Shown here: piece by piece, positions 448 to 31,046 of the stretch
Layout of the letters: every line of letters starts with the position of its first letter
Position numbering within the stretch: position 1 is the first letter of the stretch
Source: a virus
Lineage: Duplodnaviria; Heunggongvirae; Uroviricota; Caudoviricetes
Direction: 5' to 3' (one strand)
DNA length: 34,243 nt
IMG/VR virus record: IMGVR_UViG_2859810971_000006
Span: 1 to 34,243 of that record
Made by a program: the position numbers and the translations under genes
The notes under the pieces: generated by a model
The model's database searches: none
The model's input: the letters and a program-made list of their open reading frames with translations, nothing else
Told to the model about the DNA's origin: nothing

Positions 448-705
448 ATGCAAACCGTTATTTTTGGTCGTTCGGGTTGCCCTTACTGTGTGCGTGCAAA
501 AGATCTGGCTGAGAAATTGAGCAATGAACGCGATGATTTTCAGTATCAGTATGTAGATATTCGTGCGGAAGGGATCACTAAAGAAGATCTACAACAAAAG
601 GCAGGTAAACCCGTAGAAACCGTGCCGCAGATTTTTGTCGATCAGCAACATATCGGCGGCTATACCGATTTTGCTGCATGGGTGAAAGAAAATCTGGACG
701 CCTGA
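448..705 (+). CDS. grxA: Glutaredoxin 1
   Basis: 85 aa from the internal ATG at 448 (MQTVIFGRSGCPYCVRA...); CPYC active-site motif; GAGGAG Shine-Dalgarno 7 nt upstream. The longer ORF from 433 is probably not the real start. Confidence 0.9.
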   Translation: MQTVIFGRSGCPYCVRAKDLAEKLSNERDDFQYQYVDIRAEGITKEDLQQKAGKPVETVPQIFVDQQHIGGYTDFAAWVKENLDA

Positions 706-734
706 TCGTCTGACAAGCCCTCGCGTTGAGGGCT

Positions 735-1094
735 TTACTGATTTTTTCTGTGCTGTGGTTTAAACAAACTACTGATAAATAAGAAACACAGTGCCCCCAG
801 CGCACACCAGAACACCGCGCTTAGTAACCATGCCAGCTCTTGCCAGAATGAGCGCGTCGGTGAAAAAAACAGCCGCATAATGAGCATTGAACAGGGTGCC
901 GCCAGCATTGCGCCAAATAGAGGTTTCAGGACTTCTCTACGCTGTGAAAAGAAACTGGCAACTGCTCCAGGAAGAATGAAAAACAGCAAGCCGATTTCAG
1001 GATGCCCGGCAGCCCGAAAAGCGCCTTTCATGTGCGTCGCCAGAAAAAGGCACACCACAATGAAGAGGACAAAACAGCAGATTGCCCCGCCCAA
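735..1094 (-). CDS. ybjM: Inner membrane protein YbjM; possibly frameshifted near the 5' end
   Basis: 119-aa hydrophobic ORF starting at a TTG. A GTG at 1111-1109 with a strong AGGAGG Shine-Dalgarno lies upstream in a different frame (VKHKQRWAG...), separated by a G-run at 1085-1088. Confidence 0.6.
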   Translation of the reverse strand: MGGAICCFVLFIVVCLFLATHMKGAFRAAGHPEIGLLFFILPGAVASFFSQRREVLKPLFGAMLAAPCSMLIMRLFFSPTRSFWQELAWLLSAVFWCALGALCFLFISSLFKPQHRKNQ

Positions 1095-1380
1095 CGTTGT
1101 TTATGTTTCACTCGTTCCTCCTGACACTGCGTCTATCGAACACATTTTTCGCCAGTGTGGCGTTCAGTAAGATAAAGCCGCTTCGCATTCCATGCTAATA
1201 TAGGCCAACGCAATTCATATAGCCGTTGATACCTAATGTGATTACACTAGTAAAATATATTGTTACTTTACTATCGTTTAGGTGCGCTGAATGAATCTGC
1301 GCCCTGAATTCTGGTAAAACACATTATCGTAAATTACCATTTCTTTCAACAGCTTACTAGTAAACAAGAAGTTAGCCTCC

Positions 1381-3066: not shown

Positions 3067-3178
3067 AACTGAAGTTGCCCTGAAAATGAAATTTTTTTGC
3101 ACAACCGCAGAACTTTTCCGCAGGGCATCAGTCTTAATTAGTGCCACTGCTTTTCTTTGATGTCCCCATTTTGTGGAG

Positions 3179-3221
3179 CCCATCAACCCCGCCATTTCGG
3201 TTCAAGGTTGATGGGTTTTTT
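3179..3221 (+). terminator. Hairpin followed by a T6 run, candidate rho-independent terminator in the host/prophage junction
   Basis: cccatcaacc (3179-3188) pairs with ggttgatggg (3206-3215), then tttttt (3216-3221). Lies 113 nt after the ybjL stop. Confidence 0.35.
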
Positions 3222-3301
3222 GTTGCCTGAAATTTAAGCTGTTTAAAATCATGATGTTAGAAACACTGTTTTTTAACGATGGCGACAAAATGGCGGCAGC
3301 G

Positions 3302-3520
3302 TCAAAGAGAGAGCGCCACCTGTCCTGATTTCATTGGATGCGGCTGAACCGGATTTGACTCTTTTGGCGTTGCAATCGAACGAACAAAAGTTTCATGGGT
3401 AACAAAAGTATGGCTGCAGTTAATGTTCTGGCACTGGTTGTAACGCTCTTTGGTCAATGAAGATACCTGAAAACTGCTGCGAGTATGGGCGGCACTTCCA
3501 CACAGTGGGCAAATCATCAT
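3302..3520 (-). CDS. ogr: Ogr/Delta-family zinc-finger late-gene transcription activator
   Basis: MMICPLCGSAAH...CQNINCSHTF gives a C-x2-C...C-x4-C zinc-finger pattern like P2 Ogr; GGAGAA Shine-Dalgarno before the ATG at 3520; position after gene D as in P2. Confidence 0.8.
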   Translation of the reverse strand: MMICPLCGSAAHTRSSFQVSSLTKERYNQCQNINCSHTFVTHETFVRSIATPKESNPVQPHPMKSGQVALSL

Positions 3521-3610
3521 TTTTCGAGTTCTCCCCATTTTTGCTAAATTCACAATAATGATACCGCATTATTCCATTTTGCAAACTTAAAAGTTCTCCA
3601 TTGCGAAGAA

Positions 3611-4711
3611 TCATTCCATTTCGAAATCATCAATCCTCACTTCAAGCTCCAGACTGGTTGTAAAACCGTTATTGGAGCTGACGGTATGCGTCAGAGTCGT
3701 AATGGTCCATTCCGCATCATCTATCGGCTGTTTAAAGCCACTGACTTTCACTGGCATTTCCGTGTAGAGATCTGCCCGACCTTCTGCCAGTTGTAGCGAG
3801 AATGACGCAACGCCGCGTTGCAGGCGTTCCCACTGCATTTTCGCCGCCCGTTCGGCGTTGCTCCGGTTGGCATAGGTGCGATAAAGTACCAGCACGTTTT
3901 CATCTGTACCCACCAGGTAATCGCCCTGCTTCGCTTCCGGCTCTTTCTTCTGCTTCTTAGTCCTGCGCTTACGCTTCACCGTGGTGCTTTCATTCTTCGC
4001 GGGTTCGCGGGTATGCAACCAGCTGGCAATTACGCCCGTGTAGGCTCCGCGATCTGCCAGGGTAAAGCGGTGACTGTCGCCGTCCTTACGTGTGATAGTG
4101 ATAACCGGTAGTGGTTTACCGCTGGCGCTTTTACCCTGTCCCTGCCGGATGAATAACAGATTGCCATTTTTCACCGACGCAATAGCACCGTACTGGCGCG
4201 CCAGCCGCATCAGAAAACTGCCGTCACTCTCATTGGTCTGGTCTATATGTTCCACGGGTTTATCTGACAGGTCTTTACCCAATGCCATCTTCAGTTTGTG
4301 CCGCGCGGCTATTTCCTTCACCACTTCCCCGACGGTGGTCTTGTGCCACGACTTTTCACGGCGGGTATTCAGCGTTTCACGAAAATCAGCACTTCGCGCC
4401 CGGATAGTCAGGCGGTCCGGTGCGCCAGTGTGTTCAATCTCGTCCACCGTGAATGCCCCTTTCGGGAAAAGCGGCTGCCCCTTCCAGCCCAGCGCCAGCG
4501 TAATAACCGCACCACGGCGCGGCAGCACGATTTTTCCGTCGGCGTCGTCCAGCTCCAGATCAAGCTGGTCCGCTTCAAAGCCCCGATTGTCCGTCAGCGT
4601 CAAACTCATCAGGCGGTTATCCAGCACAGTGGTGATATCCCTGCCCTCAATACTGATGCTGAATGCGGGAGTTTTGTTGCCTTTGTTAAGCAGTTCAGAG
4701 CTGAAATTCAT
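3611..4711 (-). CDS. D: Tail protein gpD (late control gene D family)
   Basis: 366 aa; last gene of the tail operon, overlapping U by 4 nt; size and position match P2 D. Confidence 0.85.
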   Translation of the reverse strand: MNFSSELLNKGNKTPAFSISIEGRDITTVLDNRLMSLTLTDNRGFEADQLDLELDDADGKIVLPRRGAVITLALGWKGQPLFPKGAFTVDEIEHTGAPDRLTIRARSADFRETLNTRREKSWHKTTVGEVVKEIAARHKLKMALGKDLSDKPVEHIDQTNESDGSFLMRLARQYGAIASVKNGNLLFIRQGQGKSASGKPLPVITITRKDGDSHRFTLADRGAYTGVIASWLHTREPAKNESTTVKRKRRTKKQKKEPEAKQGDYLVGTDENVLVLYRTYANRSNAERAAKMQWERLQRGVASFSLQLAEGRADLYTEMPVKVSGFKQPIDDAEWTITTLTHTVSSNNGFTTSLELEVRIDDFEME

Positions 4712-5193
4712 GACAGCAGCCCTCCCACCGTTTTACTGATATCGCTTAAGGCAGACGTTGCTGTGTCCTGCAGATTATTCAGTTGCGCACTGAGATCACC
4801 GAATATATCGGACAGGGATTCATCCACCCGTTTGAGCGACAGGGTGAACTCAATCCGGCGCGGCATACCGTCGCGGAAAAACTCCGTTTTAGTCTGATTC
4901 AGTCCCTCAATCACATACATGCCATAAATCGTGCCACTGCCTTCAATCAGGGGCCATGCTTTCCCCTGTTCTGCCATCTGCTCCAGTGCCAGCAACGACA
5001 GCCTGCCACCTGTTATCTCCGGCATAAGAACACCGGAAAGCGTCAGCATGTCGTTGTCCGGTCCCAGAAACTGCGTGGACGGACGTCGGTTTACCCGGCT
5101 GTTTGCCGCATGTCGCCAGCTGCGTTGATACTGCAGCTCCTGATACGGCACGGTGCGCAGCATAAACACGTACAATCCCAGCACCATCATCAT
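4708..5193 (-). CDS. U: Tail protein gpU
   Basis: 161 aa between tape measure and D; overlapping stop/start with both neighbours. Confidence 0.8.
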   Translation of the reverse strand: MMMVLGLYVFMLRTVPYQELQYQRSWRHAANSRVNRRPSTQFLGPDNDMLTLSGVLMPEITGGRLSLLALEQMAEQGKAWPLIEGSGTIYGMYVIEGLNQTKTEFFRDGMPRRIEFTLSLKRVDESLSDIFGDLSAQLNNLQDTATSALSDISKTVGGLLS

Positions 5194-8100
5194 GCGTCGT
5201 ATCCCCCCTGATCGCTGTAGTTACTCCTGGCTTTTGCCTTCAGCCTGCGTTCACGTTCATCAAGCTGGCGGGCTACCTCCCGCGCAATATCCTGCGCACT
5301 TTGTCCTGGCTGTGTCTGGATGATGATCTGCGTCGGTGCTTCAATCCGGTAAATGGGCGGCACAGTAGCTGCACGACTCACCATCGCTTCACCGCCTTTT
5401 GCGGGAAGCGCCAAAGGATGCAACGGTGGAAGCTCTGCTGGCGCGGCAGCAACACCCATCATTCCGGCGACAACGGCAGCCAGTGCAGCTGTATTTCTCC
5501 GGCTGGTCACGTTTGCCGGGCCGTTAACAATTTCCGGCCCGTTTTCACCGACGATGCCAAACTGCCCGCGCGGGATATAGCCGCCGCTGTCATACATCCC
5601 CGCAAAGCCATATCCCCATGACGGAAAATCACCCGATGGCATCATCACTTTACCGTCTGCATTCACCGTCGCAGGTTGCTGACGCGTCACGCTTTCCGGC
5701 AGTTTCGCCTTTGCAGCCTCTTTACTGACAATGCCGAGTTTCTCCAGCAACCAGGAAACGCCGGATTTCAGGGAGTCCAGCGGATGCATGACCATATTCA
5801 GCCCTTCTGCCAGTGCCTCCCCGAATCGTCGCCCCATTGCCGCTGCGCTCTGCAGTTCGGCAGAGGTCGACTTAACGGGCGTCAGCAGATCAGTAAACCA
5901 GCCCCACAGCGCCTGCACTTTGTCGCCAATCCACTGGAACACGGGCTTAAGCGGTTCGAACGCTGCACTGATGGGACCTGCCGCCGCTTTGAATCCTTCC
6001 ACCACGCCACCGAGAAATGCGGTGATGGGTTGCCAGTATTTCCAGACAACCAGCGCCACGCCCGCCAGTGCAGTAACCACAAGACCTATCGGACTGAGCA
6101 GAGCACCTAACAGACCAGATATGGCATACAGGGCAACGCGCAGCATCGCCAGTGGACCAGATGCCAGTACTCGCAGCACCGTGCCTGCGGCGGCCAGTCC
6201 ACCGCGCAGTACCGCCAGAGGATTCATAAACATCACAGCAACAGCACGTAAACCGGATAATCCAGACCGCAAAAGTGCAACCAGCGCACCTGCTACAGTT
6301 TTCAGGACATTTCCCGTCAGTGATGCCGTGCGGCGCAAAGACGACAACGGCGCAGTAAGTAAACCTGCGGCGTTGCCCGATGAAGCAAGCCCGCGTCGCA
6401 GCAGTGCCAGTGGCGCGCCAGCCAGCCAGGACAACGCGCTGCTGGTTCGAGTTACTGCTGCCGTAACGGAAGATAACGTTTTGATACCCAACACAGAGAA
6501 TCCCAGACGGATCACTGCCAGCGGCCCCAGCACTGCAGCCAGCGCCACCGCTAAGGTGCCGAGGCCGACGGTAACCGCAGCCACAACAGCCGATGCTTTC
6601 ATCAGTGTGCCTGTCAGTTCCGGGTTAGCTTCCACCCAGCGACGCAACGCCCCCGTGACGCTTTTCACCGTGTACAGAATATCCATCAGCGGCTGGCGCA
6701 GCGTTTCGCCCAGGCTGCTGAAGGTGTTCTGCGCTCCGGTTTTGACCAGCAACCACTGCGCAGAAAGTGAATCCTTGTTAATGTCGGATTCTTTCTGCAT
6801 GGAGCCGAGCGCATCATTGCCCGCTGTCAGTTTTAACTGACGCTGCAGTTCCGGCAGGTTGTTTGCCAGTTTCGCCGCGTCATCGCCAAACTCTTTACCA
6901 AACAACATAGTCATGGCAGACAGGCGCTTGTCCTGCAGCAGCGCGTTCACCTTCTCCAGCACTCGCTGGATAGTTCCCATTGCATCCTTCGTCATCTGCT
7001 TTTCAATCACTTCAGGATTGAGTTTCAGCAGATTCATCCCTTCAAAGAAACTCTTGCTTTGCATGGTGGCAATGGACAATTCACGCACCATCGCGTTTGC
7101 TGCACTGGCTGCAACCTCCGGCGCAGCGCCCAGTGTCAGAAAGGTGGAACCCAGTGCCGCCGCTTTACGATAATCCAGACGATCAGCCACACCGCCTAGG
7201 CGTTGCATGACATCAATGATGTCTGCCCCTTTCGACATGGCGTTATCATCCAGATAGTTCAGCGCATCACCGAGCTGTTCAATATTGCGGGTAGGGATTT
7301 TGTAGAGCTGGGCGATTTTCCCCAGACTTTCTGACAGTTCATCCGCTGGCAGCTCAAAGGCTGTTGCCGCCTTTGCTGCCGTGCTGGCGAAGGCCAGCAG
7401 ATCACGTTTCTGGTCTTCCCAGCTGTCGTCAGGGTTTGCGACGTTCATGCGCGCCCCACCTTCAACCAGTGCAGCGAAGTCCACCGCACCGTTTTCCATC
7501 GGCAGCTGTTCGCTGGCAGCCTTGATGGCATCCTGCATTTCATAAAAACGTGCAGTGCGGTTGCCATTATCGTCACGCAGACCATTGACCTGCTTTGCCA
7601 CACCTTTCATGGCATCTTCCATGCTGGTATAGCTTTTTACTGCCGCCATCACTGGTGCGCCCATTGCCAGCCCTGCAGCCGTGGTGGTGGCTCCGGCACC
7701 TACAATACGATCACGTACCTCCAGCGAACGGGCATAACTGGCACGCGCCGCATTCATCCTGCGCTGAGCTTCCCCCAGTCGCTTCAGCCGCGCCTCCTGT
7801 TTCGAAAGTTCCTGGTTATAACGTGATGTTTCACGGGCTAAACGGGCGGTTGCTCCCGCATCGTCTTTCGCAGAAATTCCCGCCCGGTACAGTTCAGCAC
7901 GCACAAGCGCCGTTTGCTTCTGCAAGTATTTTTGTTGTTCTTCCAGGCGTTGGACTGCCAGTGTTTGCCGACCTAAAGCCACAAGGTGCCGTTGTGATGG
8001 TTGTTCCATCGCCTCCAGCTCAGAGTTAAGCAAATTAGCCTTCTGTCTGGCATAGTTCAGCCTGTCGCCTAACTTCTTGTTATCGGCCTGCAGCTTGCGA

Positions 8101-8267
8101 AATTTTTCCAGGCTGTTACCCGCCTGATTGAGTTGCTTTAATGCGTCACGGGAGTTTCTGATTGCGCCAGCCAGCTCTTTCGAACTGGCCTGTGCAGCAC
8201 GGAATGGGCGGGTGAGTTTGTCAACCGCATTAAGAATGACCTGCAGGCGCAGGTTATTATCACTCAT
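5190..8267 (-). CDS. T: Tail tape measure protein gpT
   Basis: 1025 aa; Ala/Leu-rich with repeated L-x-x-L-R-x-G-L segments (LAVLRGGLAAAG, LALLRRGLASSG, VALLRSGLSGLRAV); coiled-coil-like N-terminal region; directly follows E/E'. Confidence 0.9.
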   Translation of the reverse strand: MSDNNLRLQVILNAVDKLTRPFRAAQASSKELAGAIRNSRDALKQLNQAGNSLEKFRKLQADNKKLGDRLNYARQKANLLNSELEAMEQPSQRHLVALGRQTLAVQRLEEQQKYLQKQTALVRAELYRAGISAKDDAGATARLARETSRYNQELSKQEARLKRLGEAQRRMNAARASYARSLEVRDRIVGAGATTTAAGLAMGAPVMAAVKSYTSMEDAMKGVAKQVNGLRDDNGNRTARFYEMQDAIKAASEQLPMENGAVDFAALVEGGARMNVANPDDSWEDQKRDLLAFASTAAKAATAFELPADELSESLGKIAQLYKIPTRNIEQLGDALNYLDDNAMSKGADIIDVMQRLGGVADRLDYRKAAALGSTFLTLGAAPEVAASAANAMVRELSIATMQSKSFFEGMNLLKLNPEVIEKQMTKDAMGTIQRVLEKVNALLQDKRLSAMTMLFGKEFGDDAAKLANNLPELQRQLKLTAGNDALGSMQKESDINKDSLSAQWLLVKTGAQNTFSSLGETLRQPLMDILYTVKSVTGALRRWVEANPELTGTLMKASAVVAAVTVGLGTLAVALAAVLGPLAVIRLGFSVLGIKTLSSVTAAVTRTSSALSWLAGAPLALLRRGLASSGNAAGLLTAPLSSLRRTASLTGNVLKTVAGALVALLRSGLSGLRAVAVMFMNPLAVLRGGLAAAGTVLRVLASGPLAMLRVALYAISGLLGALLSPIGLVVTALAGVALVVWKYWQPITAFLGGVVEGFKAAAGPISAAFEPLKPVFQWIGDKVQALWGWFTDLLTPVKSTSAELQSAAAMGRRFGEALAEGLNMVMHPLDSLKSGVSWLLEKLGIVSKEAAKAKLPESVTRQQPATVNADGKVMMPSGDFPSWGYGFAGMYDSGGYIPRGQFGIVGENGPEIVNGPANVTSRRNTAALAAVVAGMMGVAAAPAELPPLHPLALPAKGGEAMVSRAATVPPIYRIEAPTQIIIQTQPGQSAQDIAREVARQLDERERRLKAKARSNYSDQGGYDA

Positions 8268-8696
8268 CGTTGGCCCCGCTTCTCTGAATCGCTTTATACC
8301 GCCATTCCAGCACTTCGGTCAGCGGCATAACGTCAGTAACGGATGGCGGCCAGTGAAAAATGGTGGCGATATCTGCCACCAGATCGTCAACCGTCAGGCT
8401 GTCGGTAAACCGGCAAGCACCGACTTCTTCAACAAAAAAGTGACAACCTCAACCGACATGGCAGTGAGATCTGCCGGGTCCATCTCTGCAATTTCCTGTG
8501 CAGTCAGTGCCGGACTGGAGATGCGGGGGATCACGGTCATCATCGCGTTCACATCCATATCCATAATGGCCTGCAGGCGTGTGCCGCGCAGCGCACCGGA
8601 CTGCGGTTTACGCAGCACAATTTCGGTAATTTCTGTTTTACCGCGCATGATGGGAGTATCCAGTTGAATGGTCTTTTCAGTCTGCTTATCGCTCAT
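8260..8696 (-). CDS. E+E': gpE+E' fusion made by programmed -1 ribosomal frameshift
   Basis: After a -1 slip at T TTT TTG (minus strand, plus coordinates 8433-8439) I hand-translated a 58-codon open extension (VEEVGACRFTDSLTVDDLVADIATIFHWPPSVTDVMPLTEVLEWRYKAIQRSGANDE). It stops at TGA 8262-8260, overlapping the T start codon (ATGAGTGA). Fusion of about 146 aa. Confidence 0.6.
8394..8696 (-). CDS. E: Tail assembly chaperone gpE
   Basis: 100-aa ORF directly upstream of the tape measure; contains the slippery heptamer T TTT TTG near its 3' end. Confidence 0.85.
   Translation of the reverse strand: MSDKQTEKTIQLDTPIMRGKTEITEIVLRKPQSGALRGTRLQAIMDMDVNAMMTVIPRISSPALTAQEIAEMDPADLTAMSVEVVTFLLKKSVLAGLPTA
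8433..8439 (-). other. Slippery heptamer T-TTT-TTG (recoding site for E/E')
   Basis: Plus-strand caaaaaa at 8433-8439; in the E frame it reads ACT TTT TTG. Confidence 0.6.
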
Positions 8697-8750
8697 TTTG
8701 TTGTCCTGTAAATTGGGTTCTGGCGCGGAATCCCGCGCCGTTCAGATACA

Positions 8751-9266
8751 TCAGAGGCCGAGGGCGTTGCGGTGCGCTTCCATCAGGTCCACACCGTCCA
8801 CAATTTCCACCATGTTGATAAGGTCCACTTCATAGAGCACCTCACCATTGATGGTCAGCTTCGCGTAGCTGTTGGTACTGGTCACTTTGGTGGTGTTGCT
8901 TTCGCCCGTCTTCCACTCGCCGGAATCCACTTCTTTATGACGTCCACGCACCACAAGCTCCACGGCCTGTACTTCCCCGGTATCATCACGCTGGATAGAG
9001 CCGGTAAAGCGCAGCTGGATGCCATCCACCGTGGCTTTGCCCATCTGCTTAAACAGCAGCAATTCAGTACCACCAATGGAAAATTCTGTATCCAGTGCAC
9101 TGTCATCCAGTCCCAGATCAACATCCACCGCCCCCGGCATACCGCCGCCGCGATACTTCTCATATTTGCGGGTGAATTTCGGCAGCGTCAGCGACTCAAC
9201 GATCCCCTGCCAGTTGTTCCCGTCGTTAAACAGGTTCAGGTGTTTTAATTTGCGTGGTAAAGCCAT
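8751..9266 (-). CDS. FII: Major tail tube protein gpFII
   Basis: 171 aa; position between sheath and E; size matches P2 FII. Confidence 0.85.
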   Translation of the reverse strand: MALPRKLKHLNLFNDGNNWQGIVESLTLPKFTRKYEKYRGGGMPGAVDVDLGLDDSALDTEFSIGGTELLLFKQMGKATVDGIQLRFTGSIQRDDTGEVQAVELVVRGRHKEVDSGEWKTGESNTTKVTSTNSYAKLTINGEVLYEVDLINMVEIVDGVDLMEAHRNALGL

Positions 9267-9275
9267 GTTGTCCCC

Positions 9276-10448
9276 TTACGCGCTGACCTGGCTGGAGAAA
9301 TTCACCAGGTACTGATCGGTGATGCGCTGACGCAGCATCAGGTTTTCAAGTGGCGGCACTGGCGTGTAGTCGTAATCGATGGTGAGTTTTCCGGCTTTCA
9401 GCGTGTCTTTATCGTTCACCGACTCCTCCAGCCAGCAATCACCACCAATCAGATAGCCCTGACTGACCAGGCTGCGCATTTTGGCGCGGATACCTTCGAT
9501 AATGTCGCGGGCCAGCGACGGGTTCAGCGGTTTGTCCACCGCCCACATGTGCGCTTCAGCCATCGTGTCCATCAGTACCTGCGCCGTGCGGGTGTAGTTC
9601 TCAAAGGCAAAAAGCGGATCATCACTCAGACAGCGGGAACCCCAGAAGCGAAAACCGTCTTTGCGGATAAGCGTGGTAACGTCGTTCTGGTTAAGCAGAC
9701 CTGCATCGGTTGCCGGGTCCTGCAGATCCCAGAACACATCAGCAGAAATTCCGGTGACACCGTTCACGCCCACGTTGGACAGGCTTTTGTGCCACCCGGT
9801 CTGCTCATCAATTTTGGCGCGCAGACCAAGCGCACGGGCGGTGGCATATGCCGTTGCTTCGGCGTTCAGCACCGTGTCCCAGCCAGTAAAGTCAGGCCAG
9901 ATCAGCATCCCTTCGCGCTGGCTGAAGTTTTCACGGTAAGTGATCGCCTCCTGTACCGTCTTGCAACCATACGCTGACAGGTAGGCAAACCCACGCAGGC
10001 TTTGCGCCACACTCAGCAACTCAGTAGCAACGGCTTTGTTATCGTGACCTGGCACGCCGAGAATGCGCGGTTTAACGCCGAGCAGTGTCTGGGCAGATAA
10101 CAGGGCTTTCATGCCTGTTTTTTTACCTTCAGCGGTCACTGCACCGATGATATTGGTCGTGGTTTCTTCTTCCGTTTCACCCTGCGGCACACGCACAACA
10201 ACGGTCACGGGTTTTGCCTGGTCAGCGATGGCATCCAGCGAACGGGCCAGCGTGCCGGACTCACCCGCTTTACCGCTGGCAGTCAGCACATCAGTGATCA
10301 GCACGGGTTTATTAAGAGGAAACATTTTTGCATCGGCATCATCGCCCGTGCAGACCATACCCACGATGGCGGTGCTCACCGTGGTAATGGATCGGGTGCC
10401 TTCGTTGACTTCAACAACGTGCACCCCGTGGTGGTAATCCTGAGCCAT
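9276..10448 (-). CDS. FI: Contractile tail sheath protein gpFI
   Basis: 390 aa; AGGAGG Shine-Dalgarno before the ATG; first gene of the FI-FII-E-T-U-D operon. Confidence 0.9.
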
Positions 10449-10524
10449 AGTGGCGAACCTCCTGATTGGATTAGGCTTCGCCCTATGTTGAAGTGATTGT
10501 GCCTGACAAACAGCTATGCGCAGT

Positions 10525-10542
10525 TGTACCGTTATTCATACA
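10525..10542 (-). promoter_or_regulatory. Candidate Ogr-type late-promoter element (TGT-N12-ACA dyad) upstream of FI
   Basis: tTGTaccgttattcatACAa, centred about 85 nt upstream of the FI ATG; shares the TTGTACCG start with the dyad upstream of P. Confidence 0.35.
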
Positions 10543-10642
10543 AAATGAGGGGAAGGCTTCAGAAGCTCACTCCACACTGGCGCTTATAGAGCTGTGTCTG
10601 ATCATCTGTTGATACAAGTACATAACGAATAAGCATGGTTAA

Positions 10643-10665
10643 GCTCCCAGACCAGAACTGGGAGC
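10643..10665 (-). terminator. Weak hairpin downstream of the acyltransferase gene
   Basis: gctcccag / ctgggagc inverted repeat about 15 nt after the stop at 10680; no strong U-tract. Confidence 0.2.
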
Positions 10666-10679
10666 ATGCCATTCACTTG

Positions 10680-11864
10680 TTATTTCTGTATTCTCACTGC
10701 CATTCTTTTTTGCACATCAAAAAATTTATTAATCACTCCATTGCGATTAATAAATGGATATTCTATACCTTTAAAAGTCATATAAGCGATAGTCACAACA
10801 ATTGGCGACAACATCAGAATTAAATATGCGTATGAATTATCACTCAAATTTCGCACATACGCCTTCCCGAGTAAAACATCTAAAGTAAAATATAGAACAA
10901 TCCCGTGCATTAGATAGATACTATATGATATCTCACCAAAGACTCTGGAGATTTTCAACTTTAACACACCAAATAGATCACATCCATTTACGATCAAAAT
11001 AAATATAGCACCGTTCAATAAAATTGGCAGGTAATCAAACGAGTGAGGGAAGTAAAAAAACGAAAAAACGAAACCTGAAATACACAAAAACGATGTCAAT
11101 TTCAAAGATGCAACTTTTAAGATTAATTTATTACCTCGTACTGCTGAAGCTAAAAAGCCACAGGCGAATGGCAGTAAAAAGATGTAATTTAAGTTGAGGT
11201 AATTAAACGCATATAAGCTAAATGCCGGGATAACTAGCATAAAGATATTTTTAGTTCTTCTCAAAGCAAATGCAATGAGCGGTAGAGAAAAATAGAATAA
11301 CCATTCATACACAAGCGTCCAATAAATACCAGCATATATATAACCAGTATCACTAAATCCATTTATATGTGAATTACCATAAGTTGCATATATCATCCAT
11401 GAAAGAATGGATTCAATTAGTTCACCTGCACTTACATTGAGTTTCCAGCCTGTTTTATATCCTATGATAAATAATGCAATTAAAAGCGAGAACATATACA
11501 GAGGATATATTCTAAAAATTCTTGATTTGTACAACGAGAACCAATTTATTTTTTTTGAATCAATTATTTTAGAAAAAAACAAAAACCCCGTTATCATAAA
11601 GAAAATCATAACGGGTAATTGCCCTGCATTCGCAAATACATGACTTGAAGGTAAAGACCATTCATTTGTTTTTATAAAGTGATGCCATATATAAGAGTGA
11701 TGCAGAAACACTAAGAAGGCCAAATACCCTCTCAATCCATCAATATTAACGTTCCTACCTTTACCTTCAATTGGTAGCGGACTTATTTTATCAAGAAAAT
11801 ACAATATGGCGATAGCTGCAAATATAGCAGCTACTATTAACATAGGGCTATTATAAATTAACAT
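10680..11864 (-). CDS. Acyltransferase-3 family integral membrane protein (O-antigen/LPS acetyltransferase-like), prophage cargo in the Z/fun position
   Basis: 394 aa, about ten hydrophobic segments; N-terminal DGLRGYLAFLVFLHHS and MIFFMITGFLFFSK motifs typical of the family; visibly AT-rich coding sequence, unlike the flanking tail genes. Confidence 0.8.
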   Translation of the reverse strand: MLIYNSPMLIVAAIFAAIAILYFLDKISPLPIEGKGRNVNIDGLRGYLAFLVFLHHSYIWHHFIKTNEWSLPSSHVFANAGQLPVMIFFMITGFLFFSKIIDSKKINWFSLYKSRIFRIYPLYMFSLLIALFIIGYKTGWKLNVSAGELIESILSWMIYATYGNSHINGFSDTGYIYAGIYWTLVYEWLFYFSLPLIAFALRRTKNIFMLVIPAFSLYAFNYLNLNYIFLLPFACGFLASAVRGNKLILKVASLKLTSFLCISGFVFSFFYFPHSFDYLPILLNGAIFILIVNGCDLFGVLKLKISRVFGEISYSIYLMHGIVLYFTLDVLLGKAYVRNLSDNSYAYLILMLSPIVVTIAYMTFKGIEYPFINRNGVINKFFDVQKRMAVRIQK

Positions 11865-12086
11865 GTAATTAACCTTAGGATTTTTCAGAAATTTTCACAG
11901 CAATATTTTTATATTGTACGCTCACAAATATATCTTTTACAATATAAATGGTCATTACCATCATCAAAACTGTCCCAGGATTACAGTTCTCCTGAACTCA
12001 ACCAGGGCGAGAGTATCTCTATCATGTTGATTTGCAACGTGCCAGTAGCCTGTTTTATCGTGTTTCCAAAATGAGCTGGTTAAAAA

Positions 12087-12114
12087 CTGGCAGGCATGAA
12101 AATCTACCTGCCAG
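12087..12114 (-). terminator. Bidirectional rho-independent terminator between tfa and the acyltransferase moron
   Basis: ctggcagg (12087-12094) pairs with cctgccag (12107-12114); A5 on one side and T5 on the other, so T-runs follow the stem on both strands; starts right at the tfa stop codon. Confidence 0.55.
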
Positions 12115-12118
12115 CTTT

Positions 12119-12523
12119 TTACAATGCAGGTTTATCAGGCCATTCAATGTCCGGAGCAGTAGATGTATCGACAGCTTTCACGTCTTTGACATACTGCATC
12201 CACATAATCAACTTTGCTTTATTTTCATCACTAATGGTTCCCAGAAATAAATCAGTCCGCCAGTCTGCTGTTACGGCATTAGCATCTGCAAGCCGTGATT
12301 GTCTTTCCTGTTCAGCATTGTTAACCAGCTCTTCATATGTTTTTACGGGGGCTGGCGGAGCAATAAATTCACCATCAGCGAAAAGCCAGCCAATGCGCAC
12401 TCCATCAGCAAGTGGGAACACTTGAAAACCATCCGTAGCCCATTCACTCTCCCCATCCCATACCGCAATGTTGACAACAACACCATCTCTCACCATTGCA
12501 TAATTCATTATGCGTACTCCCAT
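12119..12523 (-). CDS. Tail fibre assembly protein (gpG / Tfa-like)
   Basis: 134 aa directly after the tail fibre gene; C-terminal ...IEWPDKPAL typical of Tfa chaperones; GGAG Shine-Dalgarno. Confidence 0.75.
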   Translation of the reverse strand: MGVRIMNYAMVRDGVVVNIAVWDGESEWATDGFQVFPLADGVRIGWLFADGEFIAPPAPVKTYEELVNNAEQERQSRLADANAVTADWRTDLFLGTISDENKAKLIMWMQYVKDVKAVDTSTAPDIEWPDKPAL

Positions 12524-14212
12524 ACAATTACAATGCCTGCCATCCCTGCACCTCCAGCACGTTGCTGTGTCGCGCCGCCGTAAACACAGGCACCGCCACC
12601 ACCGCCACCTGGTCCATTAGCATTAATTCCTTCTCCGACAATGGCCTGTGAACCCGCGCCCTCACCCAGAACAGAACTGCCACCAGGTCCTCCCATTGCC
12701 AGCAATCCTGAATAGCGAACACCTGGCATGGTATAGCCACTGCCACTGCCAAAAATATTCGCCCCGTGAATCCAAGTGTGTATGCACCAGCAGGCCCTAC
12801 AACGGCTATATTATTACCCTCTGTCATTACAGCTCCACCCAACCCCCCTTTTGCGGTAACAACGTCACCAAATGCTGAACTTCCCCCTGTCGCCCCCGGC
12901 ATTGCACTGGCTCCCGTTCCTCCGTACCCAACGGTAACCGTTGTTACTACCGGATGGTCTATGCGGGCTTTAACGTATTCTCCCGACATTCCCCCTCCGC
13001 CGCAGGCAGCATTGCCCCTGTACCGACCTGGCATCCGCCGCCAGCGCCACCACCGCCAACCACTTCAACAATCGCAAACTTTATACCTGCAGTTGGCGTA
13101 TATATCCCGGAGGCTTTGAACACCTGACATTTTACCAGTCGGCCTGTTCCGTCGCCAAGCCCAAGGTATGTGAGAAGACCAGCTACATCCTTTCCACTCA
13201 AATTAGTCAGCGTATTATCCAGCGGTTGTTTTCCCGCCAGTGCATTAAGCATTGTCGTGGCAAAGTTCGGGTCATTCCCTAGCGCCGCCGCCAGTTCGTT
13301 CAGCGTATCCAGTGCCGCAGGTGCAGAACCCACCATTGCCGCAATTGCCGATTTCACAAAAGCCGTGGTGGCAATCTGTGTATTGTTGACCGACTGCTCC
13401 GCCGTGGGGGCTGTTGGCGTTCCAGTGAGTGCCGGACTCGACAGCGGCGCTTTCAGTGCCAGCGCATTGTTAATGGTGGTACTGAATTTCGGGTCATTGT
13501 TTATGGCTGCGGCAATTTCTTTCAGCGTGTCCAGCGTGGCTGGCGCACCATTAATAAGGGCCGTCAGTGCCGCCTGTACAAACGCAGTGGTCGCAACCTG
13601 CGTGGTATTATTCCCCGCCGCTGGCGTTGGCGCTTTGGGGATTCCGGTAAATGTCGGGCTGGCTTTTGGCGCGTACTGTGAATGCGGGTCCGGTGCGGCA
13701 AGATGTTTTGCCATCTGATCATCCGCGTACACCTTCAGCTCCAGTGCCTTGTCATCCACATACTTGCGGGTTGCCAGCACTACAGCAGGGTCGATTTTCA
13801 GGGTGATATTGTCCGTGCTGCTGGTAATCAGCACCATGCGCACGGTCTGAGTGCGCCCGCTACCTTCAGCCAGTTGCGGCTTATAGCTTTCCGGGCAGTT
13901 GCCCACGGCAATCAATGCCCCGGACTCATCAAACAAGCCCACTTCACGTATCCACCAACCGCCCTCGTTTTCAGGGATCACCTGTTCGGCAATAATCTGG
14001 CTGCTGTTCTGCGGGTCGATATAGAGCATATTCAGCGCAGCCCGGCGTTTCTCATTTACCAGTGCAGTCTGCTTTGAGTCTGGCGTTGGCAATACTCCGC
14101 CGCCATCGCCCACCGCCATATGGGTAATTTTTAGCGGCACACCGAGCGCGGCGGCGCTGGCAAGTTTCGACGCGCCAATATCCGTCAGCAGGGTATAAAA
14201 TTTTGTGCTCAT
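12508..14212 (-). pseudogene. H: Tail fibre gene H, reading frame broken at two points (three frame segments)
   Basis: P2 H-like N-terminus (MSTKFYTLLTDIGASKLASAAALGVPLKITHMAVGDGGG...) runs 14212-12959. Plausible Gly-rich fibre sequence continues in a second frame (12790-13034) and a third (12508-12729, ending ...MAGIVIVWEYA). Confidence 0.55.
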
Positions 14213-14814
14213 GGATTCACTCTCATTGTGTCAATAACATGGACCGCCCCGCCTTCATGCGCGGTGCCGCCAGAAATAATTGTTTCGTTGATATACGGAT
14301 AGATCGTGATTTCTTCGCCAAGATAGCTGGCGGCCCCCACCCAATGCGGACCGCTGGTCTGCAGATTGATGGACATGCCGATCATGTGACGGCTACATGG
14401 TTTGGCATCGCTTATCAGCCGCTCAAGTTCCAGATAGGTATCTTCAGTGATGCCCTGGTCCTGCACGCCGATATCCAGGCGAAACGTGCCCGGTGTTTCT
14501 CCGGTCTGCCACCACTCAATAATGCGGATCAGGAATCCGAACGGTTCCACCACCCGCCGCACGGCACTGGTAGTTCCTTTATGCTGATGAATATAAAAAG
14601 CATCCTTCACTACCTGGCGTTTGACGCTTTCTGTCCAGCCCTCGTCCCAGCGATCCACAGAGAACGCCCAGGCGAGATAAGGCAGGAAGCTGACCGGACA
14701 GGTAGCCGGATTCCACAAGTCACGCAGCGGCACCTGCAGATCAGAAATCCCGCTACAGGTTTGCGCCAGTCGGCGCTCCAGTGAAGTTGAACCCGGTGGC
14801 AGCAGACTATTCAT
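14209..14814 (-). CDS. I: Baseplate assembly protein gpI
   Basis: 201 aa; between J and H; overlapping stop/start with both. Confidence 0.8.
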   Translation of the reverse strand: MNSLLPPGSTSLERRLAQTCSGISDLQVPLRDLWNPATCPVSFLPYLAWAFSVDRWDEGWTESVKRQVVKDAFYIHQHKGTTSAVRRVVEPFGFLIRIIEWWQTGETPGTFRLDIGVQDQGITEDTYLELERLISDAKPCSRHMIGMSINLQTSGPHWVGAASYLGEEITIYPYINETIISGGTAHEGGAVHVIDTMRVNP

Positions 14815-15715
14815 CCGTTCCTCCGTTGGTTACGCTCCACTGCGTACATGATGCCGCCTGTGTTTTGTTCAGGATCACATCCGCCAGCGGAGAAGCCAGT
14901 TCCACACGTTGAACACCCTCAACATGCAGAGCAGCAAAGATGGCGCTACGGCGAATATCCCGACCAAGCCTCGTCTGGCTGGCAATGTACTTCTGCAGAC
15001 TGGCTTTTGCCGCTGCCATTACCGGCTCTGCTTCCGGTCCCGGATAGAGAAAAATGGTGGCTTCCACGCGATACGGGATGATTTCTGCGCTGCGAACCGT
15101 AAGACGGTCAGCCACCGGGCGGACGTTCTCACTGTTCAAAGCTTTTTCCACCACGTCCAGCAGGTCTTTTTCTGCAGTTCCATCGCCTTCGCGGCTAAGG
15201 ACAGTCAGCACCACCTCTGCAGGTGCCGGGCTGGTTGCACTGGCATCCGCCACCCGACCGTCGGCGCTTCGGGCATGAAATTCATAAGCTGCAGTTGGCC
15301 CCGCAACAGAAAGCCCTTCAAAGGCTGCAGGCACACGCAGGCGTAACGCTTCATCGCTTTCCATCACAGCTGCAACGGGCGGCACAGCATCATTATCAGC
15401 AGGCGTCACCGTCAGGCGTGTCACGTTGTAGTTGGCAGCGAGCTGGTCAAGATCGCCGCCCATCGCGTAAGCCACCATCACCGCCTGCGCGGCTTCGTTA
15501 ATGCGCTGGCGCAGAAGCAACTCACGGTAAGCGTTCTCCTGCAACAATTTAGTGACGGGTTCAGATTCCAGTTCCAGCGTGCGGATCACGGCTTCCTGCT
15601 CATCTTTCGGATAAAGCGCCACAAATTCTGCCTTGCGTTCGGCAAGCAGTGTCTCAAAGTCCGGCACATCCACAATCTGCGGTGCAGGCAACTGCGAAAG
15701 GTCAATCACTGCCAT
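14807..15715 (-). CDS. J: Baseplate protein gpJ
   Basis: About 302 aa from the ATG at 15715 (MAVIDLSQLP...), which has an AGGAG Shine-Dalgarno; the longer ORF from 15754 lacks one. Confidence 0.85.
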   Translation of the reverse strand: MAVIDLSQLPAPQIVDVPDFETLLAERKAEFVALYPKDEQEAVIRTLELESEPVTKLLQENAYRELLLRQRINEAAQAVMVAYAMGGDLDQLAANYNVTRLTVTPADNDAVPPVAAVMESDEALRLRVPAAFEGLSVAGPTAAYEFHARSADGRVADASATSPAPAEVVLTVLSREGDGTAEKDLLDVVEKALNSENVRPVADRLTVRSAEIIPYRVEATIFLYPGPEAEPVMAAAKASLQKYIASQTRLGRDIRRSAIFAALHVEGVQRVELASPLADVILNKTQAASCTQWSVTNGGTDE

Positions 15716-16061
15716 TCTCTGCTCCTGTTGATACGGAAAGGGACACAGGCACACCGTTATTCCGCCGCCCGGTCAGCTCCACCACCATAGAACCGTCAAA
15801 GTTGCTGTTGATGGTGATGGAATCCAGCGTCAGCCGTGGCTCCCAGCGACTCAGCGCCACATACACTGCCGACATGACCTGCAGGCGTAATGCCGGATTT
15901 TGTGGCTGATCTATCAAAACCGACAGGAGGGAACCATATTCCCGGCGGGCAATGCGGCTACCCTGCGGTGTCAGCAGAATGTCCCGCACCGACTGGCGCA
16001 GATGATCAATATCAGTAATGACTTTGCCGCTGGTATTGTTCATCCCGCTATAAAGCGTCAT
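15702..16061 (-). CDS. W: Baseplate wedge protein gpW (GPW/gp25 family)
   Basis: 119 aa between V and J. Confidence 0.8.
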   Translation of the reverse strand: MTLYSGMNNTSGKVITDIDHLRQSVRDILLTPQGSRIARREYGSLLSVLIDQPQNPALRLQVMSAVYVALSRWEPRLTLDSITINSNFDGSMVVELTGRRNNGVPVSLSVSTGAENGSD

Positions 16062-16636
16062 ACCGGGCCTCCGGTTGTATCGCCGCCTTTCAGGACGCCA
16101 GTATGCTGATGCGCATCAACCACAATCCCGTTAGAGCTCATCGCTCCGCCGCCCTGGGTAACGCCACCATTGATCACCACTTCGCTGTTAATACGCGTGC
16201 GGTCAGCCTCCAGTACAAACTCACTGGTTTTCATGGTGATGTTGTCAGCGGCCTCAATGACCATTGATTTGATGCCCCTGACATACCAGCGTCCGGTGGC
16301 GGGTTCGTATTCAAACCAGCCACCGTCAGGATGTTCTGTCACGCAGGCGTCCGCCGACGTCGACGGTGGCGCGAACTGATTCGAATAGATGGCGGGTAAC
16401 GCAAAGGCGGTTTCCAGATTGCCGCCCAGACTCAGCAGCACCACCTGCTCACCTTCCGATGGTCGCCACCATGTGCGGGCATTCCCGGCACGCAGCGTCA
16501 GCCAGCTGATCCAGTTGGTTTCAAGCTCGCCCGTTTTCACCCGGCAAAGCCAGTTTTCCCTGTCCACTTCGGTGACTACCCCAGTGCGGATCAGGTTGGT
16601 GATAAGGCGCATGATTTCGGTTAATTGTGCGTTCAT
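16058..16636 (-). CDS. V: Baseplate spike/assembly protein gpV
   Basis: 192 aa; first gene of the V-W-J-I-H-G block. Confidence 0.8.
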   Translation of the reverse strand: MNAQLTEIMRLITNLIRTGVVTEVDRENWLCRVKTGELETNWISWLTLRAGNARTWWRPSEGEQVVLLSLGGNLETAFALPAIYSNQFAPPSTSADACVTEHPDGGWFEYEPATGRWYVRGIKSMVIEAADNITMKTSEFVLEADRTRINSEVVINGGVTQGGGAMSSNGIVVDAHQHTGVLKGGDTTGGPV

Positions 16637-16682
16637 AGGGAAAGGTTGCCATCAGGGGAAGAAAGGCGGCAGTGCTGCAACT

Positions 16683-16700
16683 TGTATCAGTGCTGATACA
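16683..16700 (-). promoter_or_regulatory. Candidate Ogr-type late-promoter element upstream of V (perfect palindrome)
   Basis: TGTATCAG tg CTGATACA: perfect 8-bp inverted arms fitting TGT-N12-ACA, between the S stop and the V start, centred about 55 nt upstream of the V ATG. Confidence 0.4.
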
Positions 16701-16704
16701 AAGA

Positions 16705-17151
16705 TCACCCCGCCAGCCATTGCAGAATCATGTCGCGGGTCATTGCCTCAACATCATCATTTACACCCAGAAGGCGACGCTCTGCGTAACGCACCTCCGG
16801 TCCCTTACGACTGACGCGATCTCGCAGGCCGTAATGGTGAACGCGGGCAATGCGCTGCACCTTGCCTTCAAACTGCACGCTGGCAGAGTCGGTGCTGGCG
16901 GCAGTTTTCAGGTATTTTGTGGTGCGCAGCTTTGCAAACATCTGACGTTTGATGCGCCCTTTCTTGCAGCGTGCTGTTACCCTGCGCGGTTCATAACTGC
17001 TGCCATCTGGATTGCGCTGCATCCTGATGTTCTGTTGCTGTGTCCGGCGCAGTTCCTGCGCCAGCTGACGCATCATGCGGCTTCTTGCGACTGGCTCCAG
17101 ATTCGCCAGCAAGGCACTCAGCCAGTCGTCTACTTTCTGCAGTTCAGCCAC
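16705..17151 (-). CDS. S: Tail completion protein gpS
   Basis: 148 aa; GTG start overlapping the R stop (GTGGCTGA). Confidence 0.8.
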   Translation of the reverse strand: MAELQKVDDWLSALLANLEPVARSRMMRQLAQELRRTQQQNIRMQRNPDGSSYEPRRVTARCKKGRIKRQMFAKLRTTKYLKTAASTDSASVQFEGKVQRIARVHHYGLRDRVSRKGPEVRYAERRLLGVNDDVEAMTRDMILQWLAG

Positions 17152-17575
17152 GTTTCACCGTCCACATTTCTTCAGGTTCATCGGGTTCCGTTATCGCTTC
17201 AACGCTCGACACACTTCCTTCAGTGCTGACCAGCACACGCTCCGTCAGCTGCAGGTTCAGGCTGATATCACAGACATCGTTGCGCAGAATATCCACCTCA
17301 AAGGTGAATAGCTTTTCCCGTAACGCCGGGTTATTGATGGCATCAGACTGGTTATCCCGCAGCCACAGCAAAACCGGGGCCATCAGCAGATTCTGGTCGC
17401 CGCTGAAATCTTCAATCACCACGTTCAGAGTGTAGCGGTACTCCCATGACATGGAGCTGGCCCCGGTGGCAACCAGCGAACCGTTATCCACAAACAGATG
17501 CAGTTTGTCCGGGTTATTACGGACATAAGGCACTGCTTTATTGAGGGCGTGGCGCAGGGATTGTGGTTTGTTCAC
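17144..17575 (-). CDS. R: Tail completion protein gpR
   Basis: About 143 aa from the GTG at 17575 (VNKPQSLRHAL...), which has an AGGAG Shine-Dalgarno; the track ORF begins at a TTG at 17596. Confidence 0.75.
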   Translation of the reverse strand: MNKPQSLRHALNKAVPYVRNNPDKLHLFVDNGSLVATGASSMSWEYRYTLNVVIEDFSGDQNLLMAPVLLWLRDNQSDAINNPALREKLFTFEVDILRNDVCDISLNLQLTERVLVSTEGSVSSVEAITEPDEPEEMWTVKRG

Positions 17576-17828
17576 TGTTTCGCTCCTGACACGCAATAAT
17601 CATGTCCACTTTGTCTGCACAGACCGCCCAGGCGGCCTCCGTTTCATCCAGCAATGCGTTCAGATCACCGTTATTGTGTGGCGCTGCCTGATCCAGCTGA
17701 CACGGCGTCACTCGCGGACAACCACTGACGGTAAGCTGCACCTCCGGTGAGTGCCGGACGTTCTCGCAGCCGGATAATGTCAGCAGGCAAAGGAGTATCA
17801 GCCCAGCGGCGTAAATCCTCGTTCTCAC
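17538..17828 (-). CDS. lysC: LysC, o-spanin (Rz1-like outer-membrane lipoprotein) overlapping lysB and R out of frame
   Basis: Lipobox LLTLSGC after a hydrophobic signal; Pro-rich; starts inside lysB in another frame and runs past its end. Confidence 0.6.
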   Translation of the reverse strand: MRTRIYAAGLILLCLLTLSGCENVRHSPEVQLTVSGCPRVTPCQLDQAAPHNNGDLNALLDETEAAWAVCADKVDMIIACQERNSEQTTIPAPRPQ

Positions 17829-18099
17829 GTTTCAGTTCCTCAATCCGGCGTTGTCGTTGTCTCAACAGTGCACTGGTCTGTTCTGCTTCGGCATAGAGCC
17901 GCGCCTGCTCCCGGTTGTTAGTTTCAGTCAGAATGGACAAGCTGATAAGCTGGCTGTTGCTCTTTGCCAGTGCCTGGCTTTTGCTCTGCAGCTCGTCCGC
18001 CTGCGTGCTGATGGTCCGGCTGGCATCAGCCAGCCGCCACGTCTGCCAGCCCAGCGCCACCAGTAATAACGCCAGCACAACCAGCAGCAACCGGTTCAT
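17671..18099 (-). CDS. lysB: LysB, i-spanin (Rz-like)
   Basis: 142 aa; N-terminal transmembrane helix (LLLVVLALLLVALGW) followed by a charged coiled-coil region. Confidence 0.7.
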   Translation of the reverse strand: MNRLLLVVLALLLVALGWQTWRLADASRTISTQADELQSKSQALAKSNSQLISLSILTETNNREQARLYAEAEQTSALLRQRQRRIEELKRENEDLRRWADTPLPADIIRLRERPALTGGAAYRQWLSASDAVSAGSGSATQ

Positions 18100-18473
18100 G
18101 CTGCTACCTGTTGCGCCATCTGGTTACGGGTGATCCAGAAGGCAATAACGGTCAGCAGATAAAGGACCAGGGTAATGGTCCACCCCGTCCAGGCGAGACT
18201 GACAACAATCAGCAATCGCATCACCCAGCTGATAAATACGTTTTCTTTTCGGGTAATGGTCTTCAGCAAAGATGCCCTCAACTCCTGCCAGAGCGGGCCG
18301 TTCTTAATTAACGCAGCCAGTGCTACCGGAATTGCCACCCATGTCAGCAGACAGGCTACCCAGACACCGGACGCTGCCAGTACCGGAAAAATCCCCTGCG
18401 GATACACCATTGCTGCGATCAACAGCGCCATCCATAACATCAGAAACAGCCCGCTGATTAATTTCTTTTTCAT
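18096..18473 (-). CDS. lysA: LysA lysis-timing membrane protein
   Basis: About 126 aa from the ATG at 18473 (MKKKLISG...) with a GGGAG Shine-Dalgarno; several transmembrane segments; follows the endolysin. Confidence 0.6.
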   Translation of the reverse strand: MKKKLISGLFLMLWMALLIAAMVYPQGIFPVLAASGVWVACLLTWVAIPVALAALIKNGPLWQELRASLLKTITRKENVFISWVMRLLIVVSLAWTGWTITLVLYLLTVIAFWITRNQMAQQVAA

Positions 18474-31031: not shown

Positions 31032-31046
31032 GGTAATGACTCCAAC

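What the first reader, a model, noticed from the sequence alone, without database searches (positions are those of the whole stretch)
12508..14212. Tail-fibre gene H is distributed over three reading frames
Plausible fibre sequence continues across two frame changes: one near 12959-13034 in a Gly-run region, one near 12750-12790 next to C4 and A5 homopolymers. Either the fibre gene is a pseudogene, consistent with the other lesions in this prophage, or these are homopolymer indel sites.
Basis: seen in the sequence. Interest (0 to 1): 0.5.

Follow-up and report, generated by a model that had tools for sequence, protein, structure and literature searches.

The report
Tail-fibre frameshifts are assembly errors
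The phage tail-fibre gene looks split over three reading frames only because the deposited long-read genome dropped one base from each of two short G-runs; short-read data from what is almost certainly the same strain give one intact 568-codon gene, so this is a sequencing artefact and not a broken gene.

Summary
On the minus strand, gene H (14212..12508, 1705 nt) reads in three frames. The breaks are two single-base contractions of G5 runs (+ strand C4 at 13015-13018 and 12762-12765).

They are almost certainly not biological. The window is exactly CP026810.1:2632679-2666921. An Illumina assembly of run ERR200328 (Shigella boydii prov. E1621-54, reference strain) matches window 1-18265 with no substitutions. 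Its only three differences are C5 instead of C4: at the two fibre sites and in the host gene ybjM. A fourth private contraction (G5 to G4) truncates scaffold gene O.

In total, 4 of 21 G/C 5-mers across 29.3 kb are shortened. No A/T run has lost or gained a base, and no indel lies outside a G/C 5-mer. Two E. coli and three Shigella assemblies all carry five bases at both fibre sites.

Yassine et al. 2022 (PMC8795385) state that the PacBio Shigella genomes of Kim et al. were not short-read polished and carry "numerous indels in the homopolymers". They list 288 cgMLST allele differences between PacBio "54/1621" and Illumina "E1621-54".

Restoring the two bases gives a 568-aa P2-type fibre (PF12571 + PF21722). 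That exact protein is already in public data. Interest is low.

The parts
12508..14212 (-). P2-type tail-fibre gene H as deposited (1705 nt). The true gene is 1707 nt and 568 aa.
   Evidence: Intact homologues are WP_095186540.1 in NZ_AP027886.1 and NZ_CM129867.1. The repaired protein hits PF12571 at aa 1-150 (E 2.7e-64) and PF21722 Gly_rich_2 at aa 370-564 (35 bits, cut-off 24.3).
13015..13018 (.). Frameshift site 1. C4 on the + strand (G4 on the coding strand, gene nt 1195-1198, codon 399). All comparators have 5 bases.
12762..12765 (.). Frameshift site 2. C4 on the + strand (G4 on the coding strand, gene nt 1448-1451, codon 483). All comparators have 5 bases.
12959..14212 (-). ORF fragment 1 (417 aa). 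Residues 1-399 are authentic fibre sequence and the last 18 are out-of-frame read-through.
12528..13034 (-). ORF fragment 2 (168 aa). It carries authentic residues 400-483 of the Gly-rich domain. The rest is out of frame.
   Evidence: In one search, PF21722 scores 22.6 bits, below the cut-off when the fragment is scored alone.
12508..12729 (-). ORF fragment 3 (73 aa). It carries authentic residues 484-568 and the true stop codon.
12119..12508 (-). Tail-fibre assembly (chaperone) gene, intact. It overlaps the fibre stop codon.
   Evidence: (PF02413 Caudo_TAP).
1085..1088 (.). Same artefact class. C4 instead of C5 frameshifts the 5' end of the host gene ybjM.
   Evidence: ybjM is an intact 125 aa in the ERR200328 contig.
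21703..21706 (.). Same artefact class. G4 instead of G5 shortens capsid-scaffold gene O to 273 aa instead of 277.

Best explanation
The two frame changes are homopolymer under-calls in an unpolished long-read (PacBio) consensus. They are not mutations in the bacterium. The strain's real gene H is a single 1707-nt ORF encoding a 568-aa P2-type tail fibre. That protein has an N-terminal baseplate-attachment domain (PF12571), a central repeat region and a C-terminal glycine-rich domain (PF21722). GGN glycine codons create many G5/G6 runs in the 3' third of the gene. In this assembly about one in five G/C 5-mers was called one base short, so the gene collected two such errors. Shown here: the position and nature of the indels, their absence from independent short-read data and from all relatives, and the same error class elsewhere in the window. 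Inferred: that CP026810.1 is the PacBio '54/1621' genome of Kim et al. 2018. This rests on the accession block, on sequence identity to E1621-54, and on my recollection of the record title.
For: (1) The window equals CP026810.1:2632679-2666921 base for base over the stretches fetched.
(2) Logan contig ERR200328_40 matches window 1-18265 with 0 substitutions and exactly 3 differences. All three are C5 against C4, at 1085-1088, 12762-12765 and 13015-13018.
(3) ERR200328 is the Illumina run of S. boydii prov. E1621-54, the reference strain (PMC8795385 supplement).
(4) The exact repaired 568-aa protein, with all three lineage-specific residues (S15, I469, L480), exists in that assembly.
(5) Two E. 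coli genomes and Shigella assemblies CP049606.1 (Illumina-polished), AAUUOT010000012 and DADEBK010000014 have five bases at both fibre sites and at the gene O site. LPTO01000004 and two Logan contigs cover only the gene O site and have G5 there.
(6) Census: 4 of 21 G/C 5-mers in 29.3 kb are contracted, 0 of 91 A/T runs of 5 or more have lost or gained a base, and there are no private indels outside G/C 5-mers. One of the four lies in a conserved host gene.
(7) PMC8795385 says the Kim et al. [quoted passage not shown] Its Supplementary Table 1 gives 288 cgMLST allele differences for PacBio 54/1621 against Illumina E1621-54, described as identical strains. My rate of 0.137 indels per kb extrapolates to about 620 genome-wide, the same order.
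(8) The 417-aa truncated product occurs on one contig only in the whole collection.
Against: No raw reads were inspected. Real replication slippage also favours homopolymers. This prophage is defective in other ways (portal nonsense codon, IS1 insertions), so selection would not oppose real frameshifts. The identity CP026810.1 = strain 54-1621 was not read from a record title with the tools.
Confidence: 0.95

Rival explanations
1. The gene is a true pseudogene. Two real -1 slippage mutations arose in G5 runs in the particular laboratory stock sequenced for CP026810.1, as part of the decay of a defective prophage.
For: The prophage carries real inactivating lesions: portal Q145* shared by at least 24 contigs, and two IS1 copies. 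Slippage at homopolymers is the commonest natural indel type (established knowledge).
Against: Against the Illumina assembly of strain E1621-54 there are 0 substitutions but 3 indels in 18.3 kb, all G/C 5-to-4. A fourth lies in gene O and one is in host gene ybjM. 19% of all G/C 5-mers are hit and no A/T run has an indel. At that rate the genome would hold about 620 frameshifts, which is not credible for a viable stock. It does match the published 288 cgMLST allele differences, attributed to unpolished PacBio homopolymer indels. No other assembly carries either allele.
Confidence: 0.04
2. The frame changes are functional: either programmed ribosomal frameshifting or phase-variable (contingency) G-tracts that switch fibre expression.
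For: G-runs are clustered in the receptor-binding end of a host-range gene, and tail-fibre genes are known targets of diversification systems (established knowledge).
Against: All of the many homologues recovered are single-frame proteins of about 556-580 aa. The tract length is an invariant 5 in every relative examined. Five bases is short for phase variation. The two -1 changes do not compensate each other. The same contraction appears in unrelated genes, ybjM and O.
Confidence: 0.01

Closest known systems
Homopolymer indel errors in long-read-only (PacBio RS II) bacterial assemblies, specifically the 59 historical Shigella genomes of Kim et al. 2018 as criticised by Yassine et al. 2022 (PMC8795385)
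   Same: Single-base contractions confined to G/C homopolymers. They are private to the assembly and absent from Illumina data of strain E1621-54. They are scattered over unrelated genes, and their rate is consistent with the published 288 cgMLST allele differences for strain 54/1621 against E1621-54.
   Different: Nothing of substance. The only gap is that the link between accession CP026810.1 and strain name 54-1621 is inferred, not read from the record.
P2-family tail fibre gpH homologues with a glycine-rich C-terminal domain (for example WP_095186540.1, 'phage tail protein', E. coli)
   Same: The repaired gene is 99.5% identical (3 aa differences in 568). It has the same PF12571 + PF21722 architecture. 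It sits in the same context: I - H - tail-fibre assembly gene - acyltransferase - sheath, in a P2-like prophage next to ybjL.
   Different: In the deposited window two bases are missing. The C-terminal half of this allele is rare: only 2 of 5426 complete E. coli genomes carry it in full.
Genuine prophage decay in Shigella (IS insertions and nonsense mutations)
   Same: The same prophage really carries portal Q145* (CAA to TAA at 24852-24854) and two IS1 copies that interrupt the early region.
   Different: Those lesions are shared by many independent assemblies. The fibre frameshifts are seen in none.

Membership tests
P2 gpH-type tail fibre | N-terminal tail-collar fibre domain (Pfam PF12571) above the gathering score | tested here: met
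   E 2.7e-64, 216 bits against a cut-off of 23, aa 1-150, in both the repaired protein and the 417-aa fragment.
P2 gpH-type tail fibre | Position between baseplate gene I and a tail-fibre assembly (Caudo_TAP) gene in a P2-like late operon | tested here: met
   order J, I, H, Tfa (PF02413), acyltransferase, sheath, tube.
Glycine-rich C-terminal domain fibres (Pfam PF21722 Gly_rich_2) | PF21722 match above the gathering score in one frame | tested here: met
   the repaired protein scores 35 bits (cut-off 24.3) over aa 370-564. In the deposited sequence the middle fragment alone scores 22.6 bits, below the cut-off.
Pseudogene (real frameshift inactivation) | The disrupting change is present in the organism's DNA, confirmed by independent sequence of the same strain or lineage | tested here: not met
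   the Illumina assembly of strain E1621-54 has 0 substitutions over 18.3 kb and C5 at both sites, giving an intact 568-aa gene; five further assemblies also have C5.
Long-read homopolymer consensus error | Single-base length change inside a homopolymer, private to the assembly | tested here: met
   The 417-aa product is found on one contig only.
Long-read homopolymer consensus error | The same error class recurs in unrelated genes at a rate far above mutation, with no accompanying substitutions | tested here: met
   ybjM and gene O are also hit. 4 of 21 G/C 5-mers are contracted, no A/T run has an indel, and there are 0 substitutions against ERR200328.
Long-read homopolymer consensus error | The assembly was made from long reads without short-read polishing | tested here: inconclusive
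   PMC8795385 states this for the Kim et al. PacBio set and lists 54/1621 against E1621-54 at 288 allele differences. Neighbouring accessions CP026811/12 and CP026832 belong to that set. That CP026810.1 is 54-1621 is inferred.
Programmed frameshift / phase-variable tract | The frame split or tract-length variation is conserved or recurrent among homologues | tested here: not met
   homologues are single-frame; the tract is G5 in every relative.

The most novel reading that the evidence does not exclude
The C4 alleles are real in the CDC stock of strain 54-1621. One route would be a mismatch-repair-deficient subculture that accumulated hundreds of G/C-run contractions. The fibre gene, ybjM and gene O would then be genuinely frameshifted in that stock.
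Probability: 0.03. Interest if true: 0.25.

Novelty: not a real feature. Interest (0 to 1): 0.04.

Why it matters
Biologically it does not matter: the fibre gene is intact and of a known type. The practical value is as a caution. In this record, CP026810.1, and by the published account in its sister PacBio-only Shigella genomes, apparent frameshifts at G/C 5-mers should not be scored as pseudogenes. Shigella is a textbook case of genome decay, so such artefacts would inflate pseudogene counts. About one G/C 5-mer in five is affected in this window.

Tried and rejected
(1) Real pseudogene: rejected because the indels are absent from the Illumina assembly of strain E1621-54 and from all relatives.
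(2) Programmed frameshift or phase variation: rejected because homologues are single-frame and the tract is an invariant G5.
I worked round it by looking up the window's tape-measure protein, which has five lineage-specific residues and led to the same Logan contig.
(4) Searches for CP026810, GCA_002949455 and ERR200328 in paper main texts found nothing. The Kim et al. 2018 announcement itself is not held. The strain link came from the supplements of PMC8795385.
(5) My first manual repair put the inserted bases one position outside the runs and created two spurious substitutions. This was corrected.
(6) The A5-to-A4 difference at 11966-11969 against E. coli looked like a fifth error, but the Illumina assembly shares it, so it is real lineage variation in an intergenic region.
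(7) The poly-C tract at 25544-25552 varies (C8/C9/C10) among assemblies and was left unassigned.

Full report
**What is in the sequence**

On the minus strand a P2-type late operon runs J (15715..14810), I (14814..14209), H (14212..12508), a tail-fibre assembly gene (12508..12119), an acyltransferase (11864..10680) and then the sheath and tube genes. Gene H as deposited is 1705 nt and cannot be read in one frame. The ATG at 14212 opens a 417-aa ORF ending at 12959. Fibre-like, glycine-rich sequence continues in a second frame (ORF 13034..12528) and then in a third (ORF 12729..12508).

**Placing the breaks**

Two complete E. coli chromosomes, NZ_AP027886.1 and NZ_CM129867.1, carry the whole region at 99.7% identity. 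Each has one uninterrupted 1707-nt gene, annotated 'phage tail protein' (WP_095186540.1, 568 aa). Alignment shows the window lacks exactly two bases:
- One from a G5 run at gene nt 1195-1199 (window + strand CCCC at 13015-13018).
- One from a G5 run at gene nt 1449-1453 (window + strand CCCC at 12762-12765).

Adding one base back to each run gives a 568-aa protein that differs from WP_095186540.1 at three residues (A15S, V469I, P480L). It matches Pfam PF12571 (phage tail-collar fibre, N-terminal; aa 1-150, E 2.7e-64). It also matches PF21722 (Gly_rich_2; aa 370-564, 35 bits against a cut-off of 24.3). Many single-frame homologues of about 556-580 aa share this architecture.

**Are the two deletions real?**

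An exact-sequence look-up shows the 417-aa truncated product on a single contig in the whole collection: NCBI GCA_002949455.1, CP026810.1. The window is CP026810.1:2632679-2666921, base for base over the stretches fetched.

The repaired 568-aa protein, with all three lineage-specific residues, is also in the collection, in a Logan assembly of a public sequencing run. I reached that contig through the window's tape-measure protein. It is ERR200328_40, 37.8 kb, and it encodes a 568-aa fibre and a 125-aa YbjM.

At the DNA level, window 1-18265 and that contig differ by no substitutions and by exactly three single-base gaps. Each is C5 in the Illumina assembly against C4 in the window: 1085-1088 in host gene ybjM, 12762-12765 and 13015-13018.

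Shigella assemblies CP049606.1 (S. boydii 600080, PacBio polished with Illumina), AAUUOT010000012 and DADEBK010000014 cover both fibre sites and have five bases at each. Together with LPTO01000004 and two further Logan contigs, which begin beyond the fibre gene, they also show G5 where the window has G4 at 21703-21706. That contraction cuts scaffold gene O from 277 to 273 aa.

**Pattern of the private differences**

I used the short-read or polished sequences as reference over 29.3 kb:

| Feature | Result |
|---|---|
| G/C 5-mers contracted | 4 of 21 |
| A/T runs of 5 or more with an indel | 0 of 91 |
| Private indels outside G/C 5-mers | none |
| Substitutions against ERR200328 (18.3 kb) | 0 |

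G/C runs of 5 or more make up 0.45% of the bases. The fibre gene holds 7 of the 25 such runs, because GGN glycine codons pile up in its C-terminal domain. Given four hits, the chance that at least two fall in this gene is 0.31. The 'double lesion' therefore needs no special explanation. The rate of 0.137 per kb extrapolates to about 620 such indels in the 4.53-Mb chromosome.

**Provenance**

The supplement of Yassine et al. 2022 (PMC8795385) lists ERR200328 as the Illumina run of strain E1621-54 (Indonesia, 1954). This is the reference strain of S. boydii prov. E1621-54, proposed as S. boydii 22.

The same paper excluded the closed PacBio genomes of Kim et al. [quoted passage not shown] Neighbouring accessions belong to the same CDC PacBio release: CP026811/CP026812 (S. 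flexneri 64-5500) and CP026832 (S. dysenteriae ATCC 49346). That CP026810.1 is the 54-1621 chromosome is my inference from this block, from the zero-substitution identity to E1621-54, and from recollection of the record title. The Kim et al. paper itself is not held.

As a rough check from my own knowledge of the scheme, about 2,500 cgMLST loci of roughly 1 kb at 0.137 indels per kb predicts about 300 altered loci. That is close to the 288 reported.

**Conclusion on mechanism**

The frame changes are consensus under-calls at G/C homopolymers in an unpolished long-read assembly.

The pseudogene alternative is not supported. The truly inherited lesions of this prophage are of a different kind and are shared by many assemblies. 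They are a CAA-to-TAA nonsense codon in portal gene Q (Q145*, 24852-24854; the resulting 183-aa fragment is indexed in 53 blocks of the collection, and was seen on the 24 contigs read) and two IS1 copies (about 29262-30031 and 31032-31799) that interrupt the early region.

Programmed frameshifting or phase variation is excluded for practical purposes. The tracts are an invariant G5 in all relatives, homologues are single-frame, and the same contraction hits unrelated genes.

**What remains untested**

I could not inspect raw reads or the GenBank header. A real-mutation scenario in the sequenced stock, for example a mutator subculture, cannot be formally excluded. It would require hundreds of G/C-run contractions with no substitutions, and I put it at about 3-4%.

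**Verdict**

The feature is an assembly artefact, and the underlying gene is an ordinary, already catalogued P2-family tail fibre with a Gly_rich_2 C-terminal domain. Interest is very low, except as a warning against counting homopolymer frameshifts in this genome set as Shigella pseudogenes.

Noticed in passing
window 1085-1088 (ybjM, minus strand 735..~1111): Host gene ybjM is frameshifted near its 5' end by a C5-to-C4 contraction. It is an intact 125 aa in the Illumina assembly of strain E1621-54 and in E. coli. This is the same artefact class as the fibre sites.
   Followed up: yes
window 21703-21706 (gene O, minus strand 21690..22511): Capsid-scaffold gene O ends early (273 aa instead of 277) because of a G5-to-G4 contraction. 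It is private to this record; six other assemblies have G5.
   Followed up: yes
window 24420-25460 (+), stop codon at 24852-24854: Portal gene Q carries an in-frame nonsense codon (CAA to TAA, Q145*) that splits it into 144-aa and 183-aa ORFs. The identical 183-aa fragment is indexed in 53 blocks of the collection (24 contigs read), including Illumina-based ones. This is a real, inherited lesion that makes the prophage defective.
   Followed up: yes
window ~29262-30031 and ~31032-31799: Two IS1 copies bracket the fil / cII-like genes. The first truncates the Dam-type methylase gene (117 aa here against about 247-285 aa in relatives). S. boydii CP049606.1 has a single IS1 and has lost the segment between and beyond them, which suggests IS1-mediated deletion.
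   Followed up: partly
window 10680-11864 (-): An acyltransferase-3 family gene (394 aa, PF01757) sits as a moron between the tail-fibre assembly gene and the sheath gene. It is 100% identical to the E. coli copies. It is a candidate O-antigen or surface-polysaccharide acetylase, that is, a possible lysogenic-conversion gene next to the receptor-binding module. It was not investigated.
   Followed up: no
window 25544-25552: An intergenic poly-C tract downstream of the portal gene is C9 here and in CP049606.1, C8 in E. coli PCP07083, and C10 in five other Shigella assemblies. It could be natural length variation or another under-call. This was not resolved.
   Followed up: partly
window 12746-12751 (fibre gene) and 26823-26831 (gene A): Relatives show in-frame indels at short tandem repeats. 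A 6-bp loss (GSGSG to GSG) in the fibre gene occurs in three Shigella assemblies, giving the 566-aa WP 'MULTISPECIES: Shigella' protein. A 9-bp loss in the replication endonuclease occurs in two assemblies. These are genuine repeat-slippage variants and contrast with the frame-breaking artefacts.
   Followed up: partly
window 11966-11969 (intergenic): A4 here against A5 in the two E. coli genomes. The Illumina E1621-54 assembly also has A4, so this is real lineage variation. It shows that not every homopolymer difference in the window is an error.
   Followed up: yes
window 33699-33777 (integrase gene): S. boydii 600080 (CP049606.1) lacks 79 bp that are present here inside the P2-type integrase gene, so the integrase is disrupted in that relative but not in this window.
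   Followed up: no
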